Shown piece after piece: positions 10,828 through 53,906 of a stretch of 64,000 nucleotides of DNA. The stretch is taken from positions 1,600,001 to 1,664,000 of the forward strand of contig CAXVYR010000004.1 of NCBI GenBank assembly GCA_963666975.2, in the 5' to 3' direction. The translations under genes and the position numbers were made by a program. The DNA comes from Terriglobia bacterium (lineage in GTDB: Bacteria > Acidobacteriota > Terriglobia > 2-12-FULL-54-10). The notes below the pieces were generated by a model. That model made no database searches. It worked only from the letters and a program-made list of their open reading frames with translations, and had not been told where the DNA came from. Each line of letters starts with the position of its first letter. Position 1 is the first letter of the stretch.

Positions 10828-12271
10828 GAGGGTGTCCCATACATAGTTGAAGGTTGAACGGCGGTTCGGCCCGAATCGAATAGAATCGGGCCAAGCCTAA
10901 ATCCTATAGAAGGAGAACCGCCGAATGAAGGGAAAATATCACGTTTTGGAACTGGGTTCCAAGGGAGCCGAAGAAACCATCCAGAAGTTTTGCCAAACCA
11001 ACGGACAGATGCTGTTGCCGGTGGTGGATCTGATCACGGAGGCGCGTCTGGCGGTGGATGAGGTGATTGATCGGGCCGGGCGAGGTTTGATTGAAACGAT
11101 TCTGAGCATGAGCGCAGAGCAAATCGCGGGGCCAAAGAGTCCCGGGAAGGCGAGCGGAGAGGTGCGCTGGCATGGCCGGCAATTGGGGAGGGTGAAACTG
11201 GCCGATCGCCAGCTGCGGGTGGAGCGGCCGAGGCTGCGCCGGAAGGGCGGAGGGGAAGAAGCGGTGCCGGCCTACGAAGCACTGCGGAAAAGCGAGAAGA
11301 CGGGCGAGGAGATGTTCGAGGCACTGTTGAAAGGGGTTTCGACGCGGAACTACCGCGAGGTGATCCCGGAGATGGCCAACAGCGCTGGGGTGTCGAAGTC
11401 TCAGGTGAGCCGGGAAGCGGCCGAGCAAGGAGCGCGGCGGCTGGAAGAACTGTTGGCGCGGCGCTGGGAGGAGGTCGAGATTCTGGTGATTTACCTGGAC
11501 GGAATGCGGTTCGGCTCCCACCACGTCATCAGCGCCGTGGGCGTGGACATCGAGGGCCGCAAGCATGTGCTGGGGATTCAACTGGGCGCGACCGAAAACG
11601 CCGCTGCGGTGAAAGACCTTCTCACCCGCCTGCGCCAGCAAGGTTTGCGCACGGATCAGCGCTATCTGTTTGTGATCGACGGCGCCAAAGCGCTCCGCGC
11701 GGGGATCGAGGAAGTATTCGGCAGCAATCAGCTGGTGCAGCGTTGCCGTACTCATAAGCTGCGCAACGTGGCTGAGCGGTTACCAAAGGGCGACAAAATG
11801 CTGGCGAATCAGGTGCGGTCGCTGATGCGCGCCGCCTGGCGATTGCCCCAAGCCGAGGAAGGCATCGTGCGCATAAAAAAGCTCGCTGGGATGATCGAGT
11901 GCGATCATCCGGCAGCAGCCGCCAGCTTGCGCGAAGGGTTGGAGGAGACCTTTACGATCAATCGAGCCGACGTTCCTCCCAGCCTCCACCGCTGCCTGGC
12001 AACCACGAACCTCATCGAGAGCCCGCAGTCGGGCGTGCGGAAAAAGACTGGCAATGTTTGCCGCTGGCGCGACGGCGAGATGACGTTGCGCTGGGTAAGC
12101 GTTTCTGCTGACCGGGAAGAATTTCCGGAAGATCATGGGTTATCACGATCTCTGGGCTTTGGCTTCGATTCTCGGCCGAAGTCCAAACGCTGCTTCCTCT
12201 CACAAGGAGAAAGTGGCGTAATATGAACTCAACCCGCCGTCCCAACCTGCAACTGAGTTTGGGACACCTTC
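10828..12271 (+). mobile_element. IS256-family insertion sequence, copy 1
   Basis: IRs GAGGGTGTCCCATACATAGTTG / GAAGGTGTCCCAAACTCAGTTG; 8-bp TSD GGAGCCAA (10820-10827, 12272-12279). Confidence 0.95.
10925..12226 (+). CDS. IS256 (Mutator-like) transposase, C-terminus frameshifted
   Basis: IYLDG, VIDGAKAL, QRCRTHKLRN and TTNLIES motifs; 5 bp shorter than copy 3 near 12097. Confidence 0.9.
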   Translation: MKGKYHVLELGSKGAEETIQKFCQTNGQMLLPVVDLITEARLAVDEVIDRAGRGLIETILSMSAEQIAGPKSPGKASGEVRWHGRQLGRVKLADRQLRVERPRLRRKGGGEEAVPAYEALRKSEKTGEEMFEALLKGVSTRNYREVIPEMANSAGVSKSQVSREAAEQGARRLEELLARRWEEVEILVIYLDGMRFGSHHVISAVGVDIEGRKHVLGIQLGATENAAAVKDLLTRLRQQGLRTDQRYLFVIDGAKALRAGIEEVFGSNQLVQRCRTHKLRNVAERLPKGDKMLANQVRSLMRAAWRLPQAEEGIVRIKKLAGMIECDHPAAAASLREGLEETFTINRADVPPSLHRCLATTNLIESPQSGVRKKTGNVCRWRDGEMTLRWVSVSADREEFPEDHGLSRSLGFGFDSRPKSKRCFLSQGESGVI

Positions 12272-31402: not shown

Positions 31403-31895
31403 ATGGTGCTTTCGCTTACTGCTCCCTTCGCTAAGGGTTGGCACACAATAGAGGCTCCTGTTAAACGAAGTGTAGAAGCGAGCCGCAAGACCACCCCGAA
31501 CAGACCCCCAGAACAGACCATGGTGACTTGAGCTTGGATCAAATTTGAGCTTGTATCAAAAGAGTTACTGGGGTGGGCTTTTTGGCAAAGGGGACGCACT
31601 AATCGAAAGTTCTCATAAAAGGGGAACTGATTACCCTTTTGTGCCTGACCTGCGGCTACCTTTTTTGGACTGGCGCAGTTGCCAGCCAGATATCCCCTTT
31701 GTTTTCAATAAAATATGCGGCCCAGGATTGGGTCAGTAGATTGCCAACAATATTCAGCAATAAGTGACGCAAGCTCCATGTGCGCCAAGTGTTGGACCAA
31801 ACCTTTCCCCTAAGATGTAATGCATAGACTGTAAATAGGGTAAATCGATAAGACCGGGCTACCTTCAAATCTCTTTTTGGCAGACCCGAGAAGCA

Positions 31896-34776: not shown

Positions 34777-37765
34777 CGGATCAATCGGTAATGAATTCAA
34801 TATTTGAATTTGAGGTGTAGCCATGGTTCGATATCAATCCTTGCTGGTCGTTTTTTGGGCGGCGCTGGCGGCGTCCCTGGCATTCGGCCAGGAAAAAGGA
34901 TTTTCCGTGGAGGCGAAACCGGCGGAACTGCTTGAGCAGCAAGCCGGCATTGCCGAGCGGTACGCCCTGCTGATTGGAATCAGTGAATATGCGAATACCA
35001 CCATCGACCTCAATTTCGCTGCCAATGACGCGCGAGCCCTGAACGACCTCTTGCTTGACCCGGAGATCGGAGCTTATAAACCTGAGAACATTCGGTTGCT
35101 GCTCAACGAAGAGGCCACCCGCAGGAACATCATGAGCTCCCTCAATTCCTGGCTGGGAAACCGGGTTCAAGAAGAGGACAGCGTTTTGATTTTCTACTCC
35201 GGGCACGGCGCGCTGGGAAATGGCAATGAGGCTTATTGGGTCACCCATGACGCCGACGTGGAAGACCTCTATGCGTCCGCTTTGAGTAACACGGATATCT
35301 CAGGGTTGATTGCAAAGCTTCCTGCCAAAAGGAAGCTGACGCTGATTGACTCCTGCTACAGCGAGGCAACGGCCAAGAAGTACCGGGCATTGGTCCCAAG
35401 CGATATTTTTGAAGAGTTCACGGGCGAGGGGGTTGTCACCATCACGGCTTCCACCGGCCAGGAAAAGTCGGTAGAAGTGGGAGGCCACGGGGCCTTCACT
35501 TACCACCTGCTGGAGGCTCTGGAAGGCAAAGGGGATGTCAACGGCAACGGAGTGGTCGAGTTGGACGAGATGTGGAACTACCTGAACACCAAGGTGCAGA
35601 ATACGGCAGCCGACGCCGGAAACCGGCAGACTCCGGTGTTGCTCGCCGACCGCATGGAGCACGGCTTCCCGTTGACCATTAACCCCGCACGGGCGGCTGG
35701 CGCAACGCTGAACCAGCTCAAGGAGATGTACAGCGCGGGAACGATCACGGTCGATGAAATCGGCGAGGCCGAGCAACTGCTGACCACCAGAGGGGCTGAC
35801 CCGGAGCTGCGAAAACTCTATCAGGACATGGCGTCCGGCGTGCTGACACCCGACTATTTCCGAAGAATGCGGGAGATGCACCGCCCGGCGGCCACGGCTT
35901 CCAGCACTCCCGTCCAGCCGGCAACGCCTGCTGCGTACGCTTCTGAACCTCCATTCACCGCGGAATCAGCAATGACAGAAACCGCAGGAACAACCGGAAC
36001 CACGGGGTCCACCACGGGATCCTATGAAGAGACCGAGGCCTTTCGCGCCTCCGAACTGGTGAACTCTGCCGGGGGGTGGGAACGATTTCTCAGCCAATAT
36101 CCCAATGGCGCGCTGGCGGAGAGAGCCCGCGCTCGATTGACGGAAATGCAAGCTCAGGAGCGCGCCGAGACGATGGCCTACGACATCGCCAAGGCCGGCG
36201 ACACTGAAGCAGGCTGGCGTCAATACCTTGCCCGATTCCCCAACGGAAACTTTGTCTCCGAGGCCAGAGGCCGCATGCAGCAACTGCAGGAGAGCCGGCA
36301 GCACCAAGAGAGAGAACCGGCAGCTTACATTGTGGCCGAATCTCAGAACACCGAGGAGGGATGGGCGAATTTCGTCAGGGAATTTCACGACAGCCAGCTG
36401 GCCGTGGTGGCCCAGCGCCGCCTGGACGAGCTGCGCAAGGCCAACCGCGAAACTGAGAATAGCCTTTATGCCCAGGCACTCGAGAAAGACACTCAGCCAT
36501 TGTGGGACCAGTACATTCAGGAATTTCCCGATGGCCGCTTCCTGTCCGAGGCTATGGAAAAAAGAACCGTCGCAGTCAGAAGGGCGGATGAGGAGAACCA
36601 GTACCAACTGGCGGCCAACACAGATACCCGGGATGGCTGGATGGCCTACCCGGACAAGTTCCCGGAGGGCCCCCATGCCGGCGCCGCCCAGACTCGCATC
36701 CAGCAAATTACCTGGGCGGAGTTTGCCGACGTCGCTCCCATCGCCGGAGACTCGTTCATGATGGGCAACGCCAGAGACAAAGGCGACGCGAAACCTCCCC
36801 ACAAAGTGGAACTCGATCCCTTTCACATTGGCAGAACGGAGGTTACCAACGCCCAGTTCTCCAAGTTCCTGGAGGAGACGGGACGGCGCGCACCGACCCT
36901 GCGTGATTTTGCTTCCAACTACATGAGCGCCCAGCCCGACTTGCCGGTAGTGAATGTGACCTGCGCCGATGCCGAAGCCTACTCCAAGTGGCTGACGGAG
37001 AAGATCGGCTCCACCGTGCGGCTGCCCACCGAAGCCGAATGGGAGTACGCCGCCGGAGGCGGACAGGCTAACACTCTCTATCCCTGGGGAGCTGGCGATC
37101 CAAAAACGCAGGCTCGCTACAACGACAACGATCCGAGCGGGGTGAAGACTGTTAAGAGCGTAATTACTATATGAATCAAGAGAGGCTGCAATTGGAGCTG
37201 GTGGACCTGATTACCCGAACGGGTTCCTGAAAGCTTTCGGACGGAAACCTCCGCTTTATTTCGCACGGCTTCGCGCCATTTTAGCCCACTGCCTGACTAT
37301 TGCAGGCAATCTCTACAGCACTTCATAGCCAAAGAGAACTTCATCAACGTACCCCATATGAAGCATGTCAATAACACGGCAAAGATATGATCTGCCACAA
37401 TCCCACCACGTGTAATGGGCATCTATCATGAGGTAGTGCTTTACATCGACCCCCTCATGCTCTCGCAGTTCCTCAAGCTCCATTCCGTCTAGCAAACTTT
37501 CGTAAACCCCATCGGCAACGCGGCTACCGAATGTGGTGGTGTAATCGGCAAAAGATCGGGCGGCCGTCCCCATTTGATTCAGCCTGCGATTCTGTTTCTC
37601 CAATTTCTCCAAACGCCCGGCTACCGGGGGCCGGTCCAATGCAGGGGATGAGTTGAGTTTCCCTCCGGCTGTTTGTGTTCCTTGCCGGGCAGGATCGAAC
37701 CTTGCGCTGATGTCCGCTCGCAACAGGTCCTGACGAACCCCATCTGGATCATTATTAATGGCAGA

Positions 37766-40760
37766 TTACGGCCCAGAATCGCCGGGACGTATCCGCAGAG
37801 AGAGGGCAACGGACATTTCGCGGATTCTTTCAACGTTGGAGCTGGTTCCAAACAATGCAGCATCAAAAGCAAGTCTTTGGGTCAGGTTGAGACCAATGCC
37901 ACCCGTCGGCTGCCAGCGCTTCCGAGAGTACCTGGCACCGCCTCGGAATTCGATTCGAGAGAAGCGGTATTCCGTGCCTCCATGAAAGCTGAAGTTCTCA
38001 AACCCATAGCCCAGGTCCACGAGCGCTGACCAGTTCTCCCAGTGGTAAGCGCCGTTGCCTGAGTAGCGGACGGGTAATTTTACATCGATGCTGCCGGTGG
38101 GGGGCGGGAGACGTCTGTCTGCAAATCCTGCGTCGACCAGAAGACTGGCCAGCGTAAACTGCTTTAGTTTGAACTCCTCCCATTTGATGCGGTTGCCGAC
38201 ACCGTTGGCGCCAAATCCCAATTCCCAGTTATCGTGGACGATTCCTGCGCCGAAATCCAAAGCAAAGCCCCTGCCGGACCTGGAGGTTAATTGTTCAATG
38301 ACCACTGGGGTCAATTGATCAACAAGGTCAGGAGGCAATTGATACAGGAGTTCAGGAATTAGTTCCACAACTTCTTGAGGAGACAATTGCTCAATGACCC
38401 CCGGAGGGAATTGTTGTAATAACTCCGGGGTCAAGAATGGAAGTATCTGAGAAGTTGTTACAGAGGGTAGGCTAATAAGGCCGTCGGAGTCTGTGTCAAT
38501 TCGCACGTTGAAGTCCAGAGCATCGTACCGAAATCCGCGCAGGTAGTGATAGTTGGCCGCGAAATAAATTCCGTTGCGATCCGAAGAGCTGGAACCCATC
38601 CAATCGGAGGCTCCGAGTTTGAGCCTGTAGCCTCCGGTGATGGCCAGCGCAGCCTGTCCGGTTGAGTCATTGAGTATCCGGTAACTGTCTTGGGGTATGG
38701 AGACAGGGGAAGGTGTCCCAAACTCAGTTGCAGGTTGGGACGGCGGGTTGAGTTCATATTACGCCACTTTCTCCTTGTGAGAGGAAGCAGCGTTTGACTT
38801 CGGCCGAGAATCGATGCCAAAGCCCAGAGATCGTGATAACCCATGATCTTCCGGAAATTCTTCTCGGTCAGCAGAAACGCTCCTGCCACCCAGCGCAACG
38901 TCATCTCGCCGTCGCGCCAGCGGCAAACATTGCCAGTCTTTTTCCGCACGCCCGACTGCGGGCTCTCGATGAGGTTCGTGGTTGCCAGGCAGCGGTGGAG
39001 GCTGGGAGGAACGTCGGCTCGATTGATCGTAAAGGTCTCCTCCAACCCTTCGCGCAAGCTGGCGGCTGCTGCCGGATGATCGCACTCGATCATCCCAGCG
39101 AGCTTCTTTATGCGCACGATGCCTTCCTCGGCTTGGGGCAATCGCCAGGCGGCGCGCATCAGCGACCGCACCTGATTCGCCAGCATTTTGTCGCCCTTTG
39201 GTAACCGCTCAGCCACGTTGCGCAGCTTATGAGTACGGCAACGCTGCACCAGCTGATTGCTGCCGAATACTTCCTCGATCCCCGCGCGGAGCGCTTTGGC
39301 GCCGTCGATCACAAACAGATAGCGCTGATCCGTGCGCAAACCTTGCTGGCGCAGGCGGGTGAGAAGGTCTTTCACCGCAGCGGCGTTTTCGGTCGCGCCC
39401 AGTTGAATCCCCAGCACATGCTTGCGGCCCTCGATGTCCACGCCCACGGCGCTGATGACGTGGTGGGAGCCGAACCGCATTCCGTCCAGGTAAATCACCA
39501 GAATCTCGACCTCCTCCCAGCGCCGCGCCAACAGTTCTTCCAGCCGCCGCGCTCCTTGCTCGGCCGCTTCCCGGCTCACCTGAGACTTCGACACCCCAGC
39601 GCTGTTGGCCATCTCCGGGATCACCTCGCGGTAGTTCCGCGTCGAAACCCCTTTCAACAGTGCCTCGAACATCTCCTCGCCCGTCTTCTCGCTTTTCCGC
39701 AGTGCTTCGTAGGCCGGCACCGCTTCTTCCCCTCCGCCCTTCCGGCGCAGCCGGGGCCGCTCCACCCGCAGCTGGCGATCGGCCAGTTTCACCCTCCCCA
39801 ATTGCCGGCCATGCCAGCGCACCTCTCCGCTCGCCTTCCCGGGACTCTTTGGCCCCGCGATTTGCTCTGCGCTCATGCTCAGAATCGTTTCAATCAAACC
39901 TCGCCCGGCCCGATCAATCACCTCATCCACCGCCAGACGCGCCTCCGTGATCAGATCCACCACCGGCAACAGCATCTGTCCGTTGGTTTGGCAAAACTTC
40001 TGGATGGTTTCTTCGGCTCCCTTGGAACCCAGTTCCAAAACGTGATATTTTCCCTTCATTCGGCGGTTCTCCTTCTATAGGATTTAGGCTTGGCCCGATT
40101 CTATTCGATTCGGGCCGAACCGCCGTTCAACCTTCAACTATGTATGGGACACCCTCAGACAGGGCTGGAGCTGCCCAGAATATCGATCAGGCGTTGATCG
40201 AAGTCCAGGTCAGTGCTGACGGAAAGGTAGGGGCCTGCGCCAACGTAAATTCCGTGGAATGATTCATTGCCGCGCTGCAGAAATTTGAAAGTGTGACCCC
40301 AGCTTGGAGCAACCAATCCCTCGGCCAAAAACGTTCTGGGAGGGGTAAATCCTCGATAGTCGTTCAGGTCCCGGCTCATCTCTCCATTTCGTAGGTCATC
40401 GAGAAAATCAAATTCTCCTTTTCCTTTGCTGCGATCCAGCGTGTAGTGCAGGGGATTACCGGCGTAGTCAATCACCCGGACCAGGTCGAACTCCTCCTTG
40501 TCCGGATTAAAGACATCCATGTCTTGCACTATTTGCATCACCCCCAGAGGTATGACGATGGAACTGTATTCAAACTTCTGGGGAATATTCTTAAAGACAA
40601 TGTTGCCCGAGCCGATATTAGAAACACCTCCGAGGGAGATGTTGCGGGCGTCGAAACTATAGTTCTGCGCGAAAAGTGGCGAGGAGATAAACCAAGCGCA
40701 AAACAACAAGGTCCCGGCGCGGAAACAACTTTCGTCGAGAGTTCGCAACATGGATAACAT
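37766..40760 (-). pseudogene. Putative outer-membrane beta-barrel protein, interrupted by IS256 copy 2
   Basis: Signal peptide then FDARNISLGG. Removing the IS and one TSD gives SSSPVSIPQDSY...DWMGSSS in frame with ORF 37766-38599; alternating beta-strand pattern. Confidence 0.75.
38709..40156 (-). mobile_element. IS256-family insertion sequence, copy 2
   Basis: Same IRs as copy 1; TSD AGACAGGG (38701-38708, 40157-40164); transposase starts at 40059; 1-bp deletion near its 3' end. Confidence 0.95.
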
Positions 40761-40844
40761 AGATTTTCCTCTTTTTGGGGATTCGTAAGCGGGGCGTAGC
40801 ATAGCAAACCGGGATTTCCATTTTGAGCTACCCTTTTCCACAAG

Positions 40845-40873
40845 AAGCTAAACCTCCTGCCCTGTGGTGTCAA
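40845..40873 (-). promoter_or_regulatory. Outward-facing sigma-70-type promoter in the IS1380 right end
   Basis: Minus strand TTGACA-17 bp-TAGCTT, pointing at the gene that starts at 40760. Confidence 0.7.
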
Positions 40874-41157
40874 GCACAAATCACCATGGTCTGTTCGGGG
40901 TGGCCTTGCGGCTCGCTTTGACACTTCCCTTAAGCCGGAATTTCCTTTTTAGCTCCAACGACCCGCACTATACAGCCATCGCGGGGTTCCAGCGCACGAT
41001 TTTTTATTTGGCTGGGTCCAGGGCATCGGGACAGGGTCCTGTCTGCCCTAAAGCGAGTCCCTAAACTGCTGACCACGGGCCTTCCCATCGGCTCTTGCAG
41101 ACAACTCTCCATTCCTGGAGGATATCGGAATCGTTTTCTTGGGTGCCGCAGCCTGGG

Positions 41158-42531
41158 CTATCCCGACGGAAGCGGCAATCCATCGATCCGCCTCACCATA
41201 CTGGCAAATAAACGTCTCGTCAAATGGCTTTCCGCCAGCAGCAACCAATAATACCGGGCATGCTTAATCAGGCGTCCTCCGGTTTTGACCAATCGCTGCT
41301 GCAAGCTCGTCAGGGACCAGTTCCCGATTCTTTGCGGCAATGCCAGCCGCCGCCACAGGTTGCCGAGATTACAGGCAATGATGGTCAGCAACAGCCGTAC
41401 CTCGTTGGATCGGAACTTGTGGCAGCTCAGCCGCGTCATCTTCACTGCCTGCTTGCCCTCCTTGATCCACTGCTCGGCAGTGCCCCGCTTATTGTAAAAC
41501 CTCACCACCGCCCGACTCGGCAAGGTCAAGTTCGTAACGATAAACCCCACTCGCGGGAACAACTCTCCCTGGTGATGTTCCACCTTGGCAACGACCCGTC
41601 TCGCCTTGCCCCAACTCGCTGCTTGATAGAGAAAGCCCTTGTACTCCACCAACGGCTTCACACTGGGTCTTCCCACCGGGCGCGGTAACAGTTCGGCGAT
41701 ATCTCGTTCCAGGCTATCGTTCGCGGGTATGCGAATGGCGTACTTCACGCCGCGCTCCTCCAGCGCCTCATAAATCTCTGGCTTGGCGAAGGCGGCATCG
41801 GCACGAAACACCACCTCCTTGCCCAACTTCTGTTGCCGTTCGATCTCCGGCAGCAAGAGTTCTTCCCAGTCATCGGCGCTGTGCACGTTGCCCGGTCGCA
41901 ATTTGGCCGCCAGACAGTCACCATCGCGATTGAACAGCAACAACGGGTGATAGCAGCTCGACTCGAAATGCCCGTTGTAGGCGCTCTGCTCCTGCTGCCC
42001 GTAAACAGGAATTTCCGTGCTATCCATGTCCAGCACCACCCGCTGCGGTGAATCAACCGCCTCCGCCTTCGCGATCAGCCCCCGGTTGATCGCTGCCAGA
42101 CCAGCGAGATTCTCTTCTTGGGTCAACAGCTCCGTCTCGAACGATTGCAGCCGGGAAGTCAGCGCGGCTCCTCGCTCCCAGATCTTCTCCGAACCGATCA
42201 ACCGGAACGCCGGATCTTGAGAGAGCCGTTCCGCGTCGTTCATATCTTCGTAACCCGCCAAGCGGCTGTAAACGGACTGCCGCAGCAGATCAGCAAAGGG
42301 CAACCGTGTGTTCTTCCCACGAGGATCGACCAGGTGCTGCCTGATGAGTTCACCGAAGCCCAAATGTTCGTCCAGCTCTCGCACCAGGATCAGGCCACCA
42401 TCGGAAGTCACTCGTGATCCTTGAAAATCGACACGCAAAAACCTGTTGAACGAGAATTGAAAATGCTGATTTTGGTTGTCACCCGCTGGGTGTCTACCTC
42501 CTGGTGGCTGTATTGACGCTGGAACCAGCAT
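41158..42531 (-). CDS. IS1380-family DDE transposase
   Basis: VTSDGGL, LDMDST, YNGHF...CYHPL, RADAAF and YNKRGTAEQWIKEGK; exact start uncertain. Confidence 0.93.
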   Translation of the reverse strand: MLVPASIQPPGGRHPAGDNQNQHFQFSFNRFLRVDFQGSRVTSDGGLILVRELDEHLGFGELIRQHLVDPRGKNTRLPFADLLRQSVYSRLAGYEDMNDAERLSQDPAFRLIGSEKIWERGAALTSRLQSFETELLTQEENLAGLAAINRGLIAKAEAVDSPQRVVLDMDSTEIPVYGQQEQSAYNGHFESSCYHPLLLFNRDGDCLAAKLRPGNVHSADDWEELLLPEIERQQKLGKEVVFRADAAFAKPEIYEALEERGVKYAIRIPANDSLERDIAELLPRPVGRPSVKPLVEYKGFLYQAASWGKARRVVAKVEHHQGELFPRVGFIVTNLTLPSRAVVRFYNKRGTAEQWIKEGKQAVKMTRLSCHKFRSNEVRLLLTIIACNLGNLWRRLALPQRIGNWSLTSLQQRLVKTGGRLIKHARYYWLLLAESHLTRRLFASMVRRIDGLPLPSG

Positions 42532-42908
42532 GAATATTGGCGTCGGAGGTTAGTATAAGGTTAGCTTCGGAATTTTAAAACGGAAATCCGGGTTAAGAAG
42601 GAAACTTTTGCGCCAAACAAATTTGGGCTTTACAACATGGCGGGCAACGTAGCCGAGTGGGTGAGCGATTACTATTCTGACAAATATTACAAAACCTCTC
42701 CGGCCAGGATGCCCACCGGCCCGCCGTCGGGCAAGGAACGCGTGGTGCGAGGGGGAAGCTGGAACAACGGAAAAGACGAGTTGCGCGTTGCCCGGCGCGC
42801 CAAACGCGAGCCCTACAAAACAGATGATACTATAGGCTTCCGCGTGGTGATCGAAGGTCTCCCGCAGTAAGCAGGCAACACCGCAGGCTTGCCTGAGAAT
42901 AACTATTC

Positions 42909-52457: not shown

Positions 52458-53906
52458 GAAGGTGTCCCAAACTCAGTTGCAGGTTGGGACGGCGGGTTGA
52501 GTTCATATTACGCCACTTTCTCCTTGTGAGAGGAAGCAGCGTTTGGACTTCGGCCGAGAATCGATGCCAAAGCCCAGAGATCGTGATAACCCATGATCTT
52601 CCGGAAATTCTTCTCGGTCAGCAGAAACGCTCCTGCCACCCAGCGCAACGTCATCTCGCCGTCGCGCCAGCGGCAAACATTGCCAGTCTTTTTCCGCACG
52701 CCCGACTGCGGGCTCTCGATGAGGTTCGTGGTTGCCAGGCAGCGGTGGAGGCTGGGAGGAACGTCGGCTCGATTGATCGTAAAGGTCTCCTCCAACCCTT
52801 CGCGCAAGCTGGCGGCTGCTGCCGGATGATCGCACTCGATCATCCCAGCGAGCTTTTTTATGCGCACGATGCCTTCCTCGGCTTGGGGCAATCGCCAGGC
52901 GGCGCGCATCAGCGACCGCACCTGATTCGCCAGCATTTTGTCGCCCTTTGGTAACCGCTCAGCCACGTTGCGCAGCTTATGAGTACGGCAACGCTGCACC
53001 AGCTGATTGCTGCCGAATACTTCCTCGATCCCCGCGCGGAGCGCTTTGGCGCCGTCGATCACAAACAGATAGCGCTGATCCGTGCGCAGACCTTGCTGGC
53101 GCAGGCGGGTGAGAAGGTCTTTCACCGCAGCGGCGTTTTCGGTCGCGCCCAGTTGAATCCCCAGCACATGCTTGCGGCCCTCGCTGTCCACGCCCACGGC
53201 GCTGATGACGTGGTGGGAGCCGAACCGCATTCCGTCCAGGTAAATCACCAGAATCTCGACCTCCTCCCAGCGCCGCGCCAACAGTTCTTCCAGCCGCCGC
53301 GCTCCTTGCTCGGCCGCTTCCCGGCTCACCTGAGACTTCGACACCCCAGCGCTGTTGGCCATCTCCGGGATCACCTCGCGGTAGTTCCGCGTCGAAACCC
53401 CTTTCAACAGTGCCTCGAACATCTCCTCGCCCGTCTTCTCGCTTTTCCGCAGCGCTTCGTAGGCCGGCACCGCTTCTTCCCCTCCGCCCTTCCGGCGCAG
53501 CCGGGGCCGCTCCACCCGCAGCTGGCGATCGGCCAGTTTCACCCTCCCCAATTGCCGGCCATGCCAGCGCACCTCTCCGCTCGCCTTCCCGGGACTCTTT
53601 GGCCCCGCGATTTGCTCTGCGCTCATGCTCAGAATCGTTTCAATCAAACCTCGCCCGGCCCGATCAATCACCTCATCCAACGCCAGACGCGCCTCCGTGA
53701 TCAGATCCACCACCGGCAACAGCATCTGTCCGTTGGTTTGGCAAAACTTCTGGATGGTTTCTTCGGCTCCCTTGGAACCCAGTTCCAAAACGTGATATTT
53801 TCCCTTCATTCGGCGGTTCTCCTTCTATAGGATTTAGGCTTGGCCCGATTCTATTCGATTCGGGCCGAACCGCCGTTCAACCTTCAACTATGTATGGGAC
53901 ACCCTC
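52458..53906 (-). mobile_element. IS256-family insertion sequence, copy 3 (apparently intact, 1449 bp)
   Basis: Same IRs; TSD TTCCACCC (52450-52457, 53907-53914); uninterrupted 433-aa transposase at 52508-53809. Confidence 0.96.

What the first reader, a model, noticed from the sequence alone, without database searches (positions are those of the whole stretch)
37158..42592. ISEcp1-style one-ended transposition unit of an IS1380 element carrying non-resistance cargo
Seen: the caspase-FGE gene is split by 5435 bp bounded by a TTAAGA duplication, and excision restores KTVKKETFAPNKFGLYNMAGNV. One junction is the IS1380 left IR. The other lies 3.65 kb beyond the IS's own right IR (40809), at GCGTAATTACTATATGAA, which matches that IR at 10 of 18 positions by my alignment. 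The TSD is absent beside the true right IR. Known: ISEcp1 and IS1247 (IS1380 family) mobilise downstream genes using degenerate alternative right ends. Inference: the same capture mechanism in an environmental bacterium, moving an outer-membrane protein gene that was hit by IS256.
Basis: partly seen in the sequence, partly recalled or inferred. Interest (0 to 1): 0.75.

Follow-up and report, generated by a model that had tools for sequence, protein, structure and literature searches.

The report
IS1380-type element that carried neighbouring DNA
A jumping gene of the IS1380 family landed in a caspase-like gene of an environmental bacterium and most likely dragged about 2.3 kb of foreign neighbouring DNA with it, which is a known habit of this family rather than a new mechanism.

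Summary
The insertion is real. 5,435 bp (37158-42592) split a Peptidase_C14/FGE-sulfatase gene. They are flanked by TTAAG(A), and a congener carries the uninterrupted gene with a single copy of the site.

Two details of the finding are wrong. The insertion sequence's own right end is at 40935, not 40809. The 40809 repeat belongs to a 121-bp stub of a second IS1380-type element. TTAAG is also present directly beside that true right end (40930-40934), so there are three copies.

The cargo consists of:
- a 24-codon recJ 3' stub;
- a 5'-truncated DUF7687 gene;
- one whole outer-membrane beta-barrel gene;
- the stub of the second element.

The IS256-family copy inside the barrel gene arrived later. 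Public runs hold the same cargo without it.

Best reading (0.68): an ISEcp1/ISPme1-style one-ended transposition unit. The third TTAAG is explained by target preference: it is the commonest flank, 6 of 51 ends. The left end resembles an IS end only weakly (10-11 of 20). No donor locus and no second unit were found.

Such units with non-resistance cargo are already described in environmental Paracoccus. This is a new member of a known kind, of modest interest.

The parts
34823..37156 (+). 5' part of the interrupted gene (Peptidase_C14 caspase domain plus first part of the FGE-sulfatase domain)
   Evidence: Pfam PF00656 at 8.9e-18 and PF03781 at 9e-30, profile positions 6-138. An 89% identical uninterrupted ortholog is in G002.
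37152..37156 (.). left copy of the target duplication TTAAG (37157 A may be a sixth duplicated base or the first base of the unit)
   Evidence: Sequence. The empty site in G002 has one copy, GTCAAGAAGG.
37158..37177 (+). left terminus of the unit: surrogate right end with weak likeness to IS1380-type ends
   Evidence: 10 of 20 matches to the repeat at 40935 and 11 of 20 to the repeat at 40809. Genome background for at least 10 is 1.4% and for at least 11 is 0.5%.
37158..37230 (+). 3' stub (24 codons and stop) of a recJ gene, cut at the unit's end
   Evidence: 92% identical over 84 bases to the 3' end of the genome's own 520-aa recJ-like ORF at C4:1960992, which continues upstream. 84-85% identical to the same gene end in G001 and G002. 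I named it recJ from the ORF's sequence, not from a family search.
37313..37723 (-). 136-aa ORF holding only the C-terminal part of a DUF7687 protein (probably a 5'-truncated remnant)
   Evidence: Pfam PF24736 at 8.1e-38, residues 61-136 on profile positions 102-177 of 187. The two homologous ORFs examined are 284 aa (DUF7690+DUF7687) and 230 aa.
37766..38708 (-). C-terminal part of an outer-membrane beta-barrel gene
   Evidence: 42% identical to residues 200-486 of a 492-aa homolog. The model of that homolog has pLDDT 82.7, and its best solved-structure matches are TodX, TbuX, FadL and porins.
38709..40156 (-). IS256-family element (1,448 bp), a later insertion into the barrel gene, with 8-bp duplication AGACAGGG at 38701-38708 and 40157-40164
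   Evidence: Transposase_mut at 3.9e-35. Inverted repeats. 49 copies of at least 1,440 bp at 99% or more in the genome. Duplication. Contigs of runs X19 and X24 join 38700 to 40157 without it.
40157..40760 (-). N-terminal part of the barrel gene with signal-peptide-like start
   Evidence: 52% identical to residues 14-200 of the 492-aa homolog. The two halves abut at residue 200.
40809..40929 (+).
   Evidence: 16 of 18 complementary to the left repeat. 73-79% identical to the right ends of full elements in G002, G028 and G036 and to three ends in this genome. Its flank GCAAA is not TTAAG.
40930..40934 (.). third copy of TTAAG, directly beside the IS's true right repeat
   Evidence: Sequence. 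TTAA at this position is shared with a partial copy of the stub at window 31461-31530.
40935..42592 (-). complete IS1380-family element ('IS-A', 1,658 bp): right repeat at 40935, transposase 42531 to 41158, left repeat ending at 42592
   Evidence: DDE_Tnp_1_4 at 4.9e-116 over profile positions 3-433 of 435. Collinear with 10 genomic relatives at 79-83% identity. The identical right end with another flank is at C4:2372815.
42593..42597 (.). right copy of the target duplication TTAAG
   Evidence: Sequence. Contigs of X19, X22 and X24 run from about 42555-42567 across it to about 43150.
42598..42870 (+). 3' part of the interrupted gene (end of the FGE-sulfatase domain)
   Evidence: PF03781 at 6e-22, profile positions 170-254. 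92.7% identical to the G002 ortholog.

Best explanation
The 5.4 kb is a one-ended transposition unit of an IS1380-family element. The literature calls this a transposition unit for ISEcp1 and a transposable module for ISPme1.

Inferred history:
1. In a related bacterium, a 1,658-bp element (IS-A) inserted at a TTAAG lying 121 bp inside the right end of another IS1380-type element (IS-B). IS-B sat 48 bp upstream of an outer-membrane barrel gene.
2. In a later round the transposase bound the left repeat of IS-A. It skipped both good right repeats (40935 and 40809) and cut about 2.3 kb further on, at a weakly similar sequence inside the last 24 codons of recJ.
3. The resulting unit of about 3,979 bp inserted at a TTAAG in the caspase/FGE gene of this genome and duplicated those 5 bases.
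4. Later an IS256-family copy hit the barrel gene in part of the population.

Shown: the insertion, its duplication, the empty site, the ends, the identity of all parts, and the late and polymorphic IS256 hit.

Inferred: the order of events, the foreign donor, and the use of the surrogate end by the transposase.
For: 1. The whole 5,435 bp is one insertion. It has flanking TTAAG, and the reading frame is restored exactly. A single-copy site exists in a congener's 867-aa ortholog.
2. One end is a bona fide left repeat of an intact IS1380-family element.
3. The other end is not an IS end. It cuts a recJ gene 24 codons before its stop: homology to the genome's own recJ starts at the junction and that gene continues upstream. 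This is what a surrogate end at an arbitrary place predicts.
4. The cargo lies beyond the right repeat and the barrel gene has the same orientation as the transposase, as in ISEcp1 units.
5. Relatives of the element make 5-bp duplications: 5 of the 8 copies with both ends have perfect ones.
6. The left end matches IS1380-type ends better than 98.6-99.5% of genome positions.
7. The cargo is single-copy in this genome and has lower G+C than its surroundings (51-53% against 57%). Its recJ stub is 92% identical to the host's own recJ. This fits DNA brought in from a relative.
8. TTAAG is the commonest flank of IS1380-type ends here, at 6 of 51, or 4 of 49 without this locus. TTAA at 40931-34 is shared with another partial copy of the IS-B stub. 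So an earlier, independent insertion at TTAAG is plausible.
9. One-ended capture is documented for this family: ISPme1 and IS1247a modules (passages of PMC3281130 and PMC9330008) and ISEcp1 (passage of PMC3316993).
Against: - The same TTAAG stands beside the IS's own right repeat. Under this reading that is a coincidence, with a chance of roughly 7-12%.
- The surrogate end is weak: 10-11 of 20, without the terminal CC. At least 8 sites within the cargo match as well or better.
- Two good right repeats had to be skipped.
- No donor locus was found in the own genome, in 40 relatives, or in the genome and metagenome collections.
- No second unit with a different end was found. The three IS copies with unmatched flanks could not be resolved.
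- No other copy of IS-A above 80% over its right end was seen in 400 genomes of the class.
- Nothing was tested experimentally.
- Short contigs cannot phase the left junction across the 45-bp recJ repeat.
Confidence: 0.68

Rival explanations
1. Two separate events at the same TTAAG. Either IS-A made a simple insertion into the gene and 37158-40929 was later inserted into the left copy of its duplication, or 37158-40929 entered first and IS-A then inserted into the right copy of that duplication. Either order gives three TTAAG copies without any coincidence.
For: Three identical TTAAG copies at 37152, 40930 and 42593. IS-A on its own looks like a textbook simple insertion with a perfect 5-bp duplication. 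TTAAG is a preferred target, so a duplicated site is again a good target.
Against: - The 3.8-kb segment has no transposon end at either side. The left side is a cut recJ gene. The right side is position 121 of an IS stub and shows no likeness to a left repeat (read). No known mechanism would paste it in with a 5-bp duplication.
- TTAA at 40931-34 looks native to the IS-B stub.
- No contig in four public runs shows either intermediate. The only skipping joints listed there are the loss of IS256 and short-sided ones. Absence in contigs is weak evidence.
Confidence: 0.12
2. A composite transposon that once had a second IS copy at its left end, later lost by deletion together with most of recJ.
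For: The genome holds 13 IS1380-type hits of at least 1,300 bp and many solo ends, so pairs of copies are available.
Against: No trace of IS sequence remains at the left end. Apart from the IS256-family copies, the only other match of the cargo in the genome is the host's recJ. A deletion that removes a whole IS and stops exactly at the target duplication, keeping the frame restorable, is very unlikely.
Confidence: 0.05
3. Not transposition of the left end at all: foreign DNA joined next to a resident IS by illegitimate or microhomology-mediated recombination, for instance after uptake of a relative's DNA.
For: The left junction shares only GA or A with the recJ sequence. The cargo looks foreign by G+C and is a patchwork of gene remnants.
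Against: A clean 5-6-bp direct duplication of the target with exact restoration of the frame is the signature of a staggered transposase cut, not of end joining.
Confidence: 0.05
4. Assembly artefact: the IS copies caused a mis-join.
For: The genome is full of repeats. The left junction lies in a 45-bp repeat.
Against: Both flanks are single-copy. Contigs from three studies carry the gene-to-stub junction (36400-37185), the cargo into IS-A (40157 or 40178 to 40838, 41023 or 40964) and IS-A into the gene's 3' part (about 42555-42567 to about 43150).
Confidence: 0.02

Closest known systems
ISEcp1 transposition units (IS1380 family; blaCTX-M, blaCMY-2 and others)
   Same: A single IS copy at one end. 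The cargo lies beyond the right repeat and is co-oriented with the transposase. The whole unit is flanked by a 5-bp duplication. The distal end is a poor surrogate of the right repeat. The general description comes from a passage of PMC3316993 and the listings. The details of ISEcp1 ends are recalled.
   Different: The transposase is a different family member; I made no direct sequence comparison with ISEcp1. The cargo is not a resistance gene. The host is an environmental bacterium: the two named records that share the recJ peptide pattern are labelled Acidobacteria and Terriglobia MAGs. A stub of a second IS with a good right repeat lies inside the unit. No outward promoter was shown: one weak consensus match against 0.4 expected.
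Transposable modules (TMos) of ISPme1 and IS1247a in Paracoccus
   Same: IS1380-family elements of environmental bacteria that mobilise adjacent genomic DNA of variable length from the 3' side of the element, with non-resistance cargo (passages of PMC3281130 and PMC9330008). IS1247 is listed there as 1,672 bp with 16/13 repeats and a 5-bp duplication, close to the 1,658 bp and 5 bp seen here.
   Different: Those were caught on trap plasmids, so movement was observed and several modules per IS were seen. Here there is one natural unit, inferred from sequence alone. The primary paper (PMC2347374) was not held, so I could not compare the surrogate ends.
IS91 / ISCR rolling-circle one-ended capture
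   Same: A single element mobilises adjacent DNA by missing its own end (passage of PMC9330008).
   Different: By that passage those elements make no target duplication and use tyrosine (rolling-circle type) transposases. Here there is a DDE_Tnp_1_4 transposase and a 5-bp duplication. This is not a member.

Membership tests
IS1380 family insertion sequence (the 40935-42592 element) | DDE transposase of the DDE_Tnp_1_4 type, one ORF | tested here: met
   PF13701 at E 4.9e-116, profile positions 3-433 of 435, 457-aa open frame.
IS1380 family insertion sequence (the 40935-42592 element) | about 1.65-1.7 kb with short terminal inverted repeats | tested here: met
   1,658 bp. The ends CCGGAATTTCCTTTTT and CCCGGATTTCCGTTTT agree at 13 of 16. 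For comparison, IS1247 is 1,672 bp with 16/13 repeats (Table 2 passage of PMC3281130).
IS1380 family insertion sequence (the 40935-42592 element) | 4-5-bp target duplication | tested here: met
   TTAAG on both sides of the element itself. 5 of 8 genomic relatives with both ends have perfect 5-bp duplications.
One-ended transposition unit / transposable module of an IS1380-family element | one IS copy only, its left repeat forming one end of the unit | tested here: met
   The left repeat ends at 42592 against the duplicated TTAAG. There is no IS sequence at the other end.
One-ended transposition unit / transposable module of an IS1380-family element | cargo lies beyond the right repeat (3' side of the transposase gene) | tested here: met
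   The transposase reads 42531 to 41158. The right repeat is at 40935 and the cargo is 40934 down to 37158. The barrel gene is on the same strand.
One-ended transposition unit / transposable module of an IS1380-family element | whole unit flanked by one target duplication, with a demonstrable empty site | tested here: met
   TTAAG at 37152 and 42593. The empty site is in the G002 ortholog.
One-ended transposition unit / transposable module of an IS1380-family element | distal end resembles the right repeat (surrogate end) | tested here: inconclusive
   10 of 20 and 11 of 20 matches (background 1.4% and 0.5%). At least 8 equal or better sites lie inside the cargo, and the terminal CC is missing.
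One-ended transposition unit / transposable module of an IS1380-family element | the flank beside the IS's own right repeat stems from an earlier, independent insertion | tested here: inconclusive
   It is the same TTAAG as the unit's duplication. This is compatible with the target preference (6 of 51 ends) and with TTAA being native to the IS-B stub, but it is also what a two-step history predicts.
One-ended transposition unit / transposable module of an IS1380-family element | several units of different length from the same IS, or the donor locus | tested here: not met
   No donor and no second unit were found. These searches cover samples of the collections only.
One-ended transposition unit / transposable module of an IS1380-family element | observed transposase-dependent movement of the unit | not testable with these tools
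   This needs a trap-plasmid or mating-out assay.

The most novel reading that the evidence does not exclude
The three identical TTAAG copies are not a coincidence. In this reading, IS1380-type transposases re-open the duplicated target beside a resident element, and foreign DNA is pasted between that duplication and the right repeat. Cargo would then be acquired by docking at an IS end rather than by reading through the right repeat.
Probability: 0.07. Interest if true: 0.6.

Novelty: new member of a known kind. Interest (0 to 1): 0.3.

Why it matters
The locus is a clean natural example of an IS1380-family element that moved chromosomal DNA of a relative (a recJ stub, a gene remnant and a whole outer-membrane channel gene) into another genome. 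It lies outside the clinical setting where this mechanism is usually studied. It could only be recognised because it landed in a conserved gene whose intact form exists in a congener. That is the condition which the Paracoccus work names as necessary for finding such modules in silico (Discussion passage of PMC3281130).

It adds a lineage and shows nesting of two family members inside one unit. It does not add a mechanism. A search for IS1380 together with Acidobacteri* gave 5 papers, none on this subject by title or abstract.

Tried and rejected
- **Donor locus.** The C-terminal barrel protein found no relative in genome contigs or in metagenome contigs. A degenerate pattern for the recJ C-terminal peptide gave 2 genome records, both without the cargo's downstream sequence as far as one search shows for the genus, and 0 metagenome records. 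The exact IS-B/IS-A junction gave 0 records.
- **Other units in this genome.** I searched the left-repeat-side flanks of the three relatives with unmatched flanks (C4:733816-735474, C3:1365176-1366835, C3:1044627-1046286) in G001 and G002. They hit only short repeats or many copies, so no empty site could be defined.
- **Other IS-A copies.** None above 80% over the right 300 bp in 400 genomes of the class. The best was 79%.
- **Empty-site reads.** The joint 37064 to 42631 has only 20 bases on its shorter side and unknown content between. It does not lie at the insertion site. I take it for paralogous FGE-domain sequence, not an empty site.
- **Outward promoter.** One weak consensus match at 41223-41195 against 0.4 expected. 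This is not evidence.
- **TTAAG as part of the IS end.** Rejected. Relatives have other 5-mers (ATTAG, GTCAG, TTAAT, CTAAC, GTAAA), and the 96% copy of the right end has TTAAA.
- **40809 as the IS end.** Rejected.
- **Earlier notes of this scan.** None for this place.
- **The primary ISPme1 paper.** PMC2347374 is not held. I did not ask for supplementary files; none of my claims rests on them.
Full report
**What is there**

The window is G000:C4:1600001-1664000. The + strand ORF 34823-37174 carries a Peptidase_C14 domain and the first part of an FGE-sulfatase domain (profile positions 6-138). The frame 42598-42867 carries the rest of that domain (profile positions 170-254). TTAAGA stands at 37152-37157 and again at 42593-42598, with 5,435 bp between.

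A genome of the same genus, G002, has an 89% identical ortholog as one open frame of 867 aa. Its DNA aligns to both flanks (88.7% and 92.7%). At the site it reads GTGAAGACTGTCAAGAAGGAAACT, with one copy of the target. The insertion and its target duplication are therefore real. Both flanks are single-copy in the genome.

**The insertion sequence and its true ends**

The ORF 42531-41158 on the minus strand is a full-length DDE_Tnp_1_4 transposase (E 4.9e-116).

The repeat finder pairs the left repeat (42577-42594) with 40807-40824, 16 of 18. But 10 relatives of the element in this genome (79-83% identical), aligned over their right ends, all start at CCGGAATT. This aligns with CCGGAATTTCC at 40935. 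A 96% identical solo right end at C4:2372815 starts at the same base behind a different flank. The element, here called IS-A, is therefore 40935-42592, 1,658 bp.

Of the 8 relatives with both ends, 5 have perfect 5-bp duplications: ATTAG, GTCAG, TTAAT, CTAAC and GTAAA. Three have unmatched flanks.

Directly before 40935 stands TTAAG (40930-40934). The locus thus has three copies of TTAAG, and IS-A alone looks like a simple insertion.

**The 40809 repeat**

40809-40929 is 73-79% identical to the first 115 bases or so of full IS1380-type elements in G002, G028 and G036, and to three ends in this genome. The bodies of those elements are 80-85% identical to IS-A from its base 286 on, but their right 285 bp differ. 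So 40809-40929 is a stub of a second family member, here called IS-B. Its flank is GCAAA.

**The cargo**

From the left:

1. 37158-37230 is the last 24 codons and the stop of a recJ gene on the + strand. It is 92% identical over 84 bases to the genome's own recJ-like ORF at C4:1960992. That ORF continues upstream for 520 aa, and the differences are largely synonymous. G001 and G002 match at 84-85%.
2. 37313-37723 (minus strand) is a 136-aa ORF of which only residues 61-136 match DUF7687, on profile positions 102-177 of 187. A full homolog is 284 aa with DUF7690 and DUF7687 and lies beside a D12-class adenine methyltransferase gene. A second homologous ORF is 230 aa. The cargo copy is probably a 5'-truncated remnant.
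3. 40760-40157 and 38708-37766 (minus strand) are the two halves of one gene. They match residues 14-200 (52%) and 200-486 (42%) of a 492-aa protein of a family of about 450-470-aa hypothetical proteins without a Pfam domain.
   - A model of that homolog has pLDDT 82.7 and a long run of strands. Its best solved-structure matches are all outer-membrane barrels, led by TodX, TbuX, OmpU and FadL (E about 1e-5, TM 0.28-0.37).
   - "Outer-membrane protein" is therefore supported at the level of fold class.
4. The gene is split by an IS256-family element, 38709-40156, with the 8-bp duplication AGACAGGG. This element has 49 copies of at least 1,440 bp at 99% or more in the genome.

Apart from the IS256 copies and the recJ stub, the cargo has no other copy in the genome. 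It found only distant relatives in 40 related genomes. Its G+C is 51-53% against 57% for the window.

**Read support**

Six public runs hold 94-99% of the sampled words of 36500-38700. I laid three of them, from three studies, plus one metagenome run with a small share. All are contigs.

In X19, X22 and X24:
- one contig covers 36400-37185, that is the gene into the first 28 bases of the stub;
- the next starts at 37171;
- contigs run from the cargo across 40809 and 40935 to 40838, 41023 or 40964;
- contigs run from about 42555-42567 across the right junction to about 43150.

The break at 37171-37185 is explained by the 45 bases that the stub shares exactly with the host's recJ. For the same reason these contigs cannot phase the left junction further.

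Contigs of X19 and X24 (255 bases on the shorter side, depth equal to the flanks) join 38700 to 40157. So does a low-depth contig of X22, with 22 bases on the shorter side. The cargo therefore exists without the IS256 copy, and that hit is later than the arrival of the unit. Without it the unit measures 3,979 bp and the cargo about 2.3 kb. No contig shows a clean empty site, IS-A alone or the cargo alone.

**Mechanism**

A single insertion event needs two ends. The right-hand one is the left repeat of IS-A. The left-hand one lies inside a gene and has no IS sequence. This is the pattern described for one-ended transposition in this family:
- ISPme1 and IS1247a mobilise adjacent DNA of variable length from the 3' side of the element in Paracoccus (passages of PMC3281130 and PMC9330008).
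- ISEcp1 is given as an example of elements that recognise surrogate ends (passage of PMC3316993).

Orientation fits: the cargo lies behind the right repeat, and the barrel gene reads the same way as the transposase.

The likeness of 37158 to an IS end is modest. It scores 10 of 20 against the repeat at 40935 and 11 of 20 against that at 40809. Genome-wide frequencies are 1.4% and 0.5%. It is not the best site in the cargo. If the duplication is 5 bp, as in the relatives, the unit starts at 37157 and the score falls to 9 of 20. I cannot decide between 5 and 6 bp.

**The third TTAAG**

Under the one-ended reading, TTAAG at 40930 is left from the earlier insertion of IS-A into IS-B in the donor, and it equals the new target by chance. 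That chance is not small. Among 51 IS1380-type ends found by pattern in this genome, TTAAG is the commonest flank (6 of 51; 4 of 49 without this locus). The positions show a T-T-A-A-A/G consensus. In loci from other genomes the flanks fit the same consensus, but none of the 10 ends listed is TTAAG. I put the coincidence at about 7-12%.

A partial copy of the IS-B stub at window 31461-31530 is 89% identical over 46 bases and reads TTTAAC at the same position. This suggests that TTAA was native to this IS-B lineage.

The rival is two events at the same TTAAG. It needs no coincidence, but it needs a 3.8-kb segment without any transposon end to be pasted in with a 5-bp duplication, and I know no mechanism for that. 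Weighing a roughly tenfold likelihood advantage against a much lower prior, I give the one-ended unit 0.68 and the two-step history 0.12.

A composite transposon with a lost second copy, end joining and misassembly each get 0.05 or less, for the reasons given under the rivals.

**What was not found**

- No donor locus.
- No second unit. The flanks of the three relatives with unmatched duplications are repetitive and gave no empty site in G001 or G002.
- No further copy of IS-A above 80% over its right end in 400 genomes of the class.
- No convincing outward promoter.

**Comparison and novelty**

IS-A meets the tested features of the IS1380 family: transposase type, length, repeats and 5-bp duplication.

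The unit meets four structural features of an ISEcp1/ISPme1-type unit. It is inconclusive on two: likeness of the surrogate end, and independence of the inner flank. It lacks the two that would make it certain: several units or the donor, and observed movement.

Capture of non-resistance DNA by this family in environmental bacteria is already in print for Paracoccus. I therefore rate this as a new member of a known kind.

The lineage is probably acidobacterial. The only two named genome records with the recJ peptide pattern are labelled Acidobacteria and Terriglobia MAGs, and the barrel protein's named relatives are Acidobacteria and Vicinamibacterales MAG proteins. A full-text search for IS1380 together with Acidobacteri* listed 5 papers, none on this topic by title or abstract.

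Interest: 0.3.

Noticed in passing
window 38709-40156, 10828-12271, 52458-53906 and genome-wide: An IS256-family element is present in 49 copies of at least 1,440 bp at 99% identity or more (3 of them in this window), which points to a recent burst. The copy in the barrel gene is absent from contigs of runs X19 and X24 at full depth, so insertions are polymorphic between samples.
   Followed up: partly
whole genome G000: The genome holds 13 IS1380-type hits of at least 1,300 bp and dozens of solo or truncated IS1380-type ends of several sub-types. Their flanks share a T-T-A-A-A/G consensus, with TTAAG the commonest.
   Followed up: partly
window 31461-31530 (minus strand): A partial, inverted copy of the IS-B stub (89% over 46 bases) carries a 13-base internal duplication (GGTCTGTTC...). 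It lies in an intergenic region about 3.3 kb upstream of the interrupted gene. Contigs of X19 and X24 show the same structure.
   Followed up: partly
window 37316-37543; loci L025-L104: The C-terminal 76 residues of the DUF7687 remnant are 76-95% identical to proteins in the 80 loci kept. Those records are labelled Planctomycetota, Acidobacteriota, Chloroflexota, Actinomycetota, Proteobacteria and others. In the one locus examined, the full 284-aa gene (DUF7690+DUF7687) lies beside a D12-class adenine methyltransferase gene, which suggests a widely exchanged restriction-modification partner.
   Followed up: partly
G000:C3:1099028-1099563: An IS-B-type right end (about 106 bp) is joined directly to the last 430 bp or so of an IS1380-type element. 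It looks like an internal-deletion (MITE-like) derivative.
   Followed up: no
proteins P0003-P0122: The barrel gene belongs to a family of about 450-470-aa hypothetical proteins without a Pfam domain. There were 130 hits at E of 1e-5 or less, and the named ones come from Acidobacteria and Vicinamibacterales MAGs. The predicted fold is nearest to TodX/FadL-type channels, at low TM-scores.
   Followed up: partly
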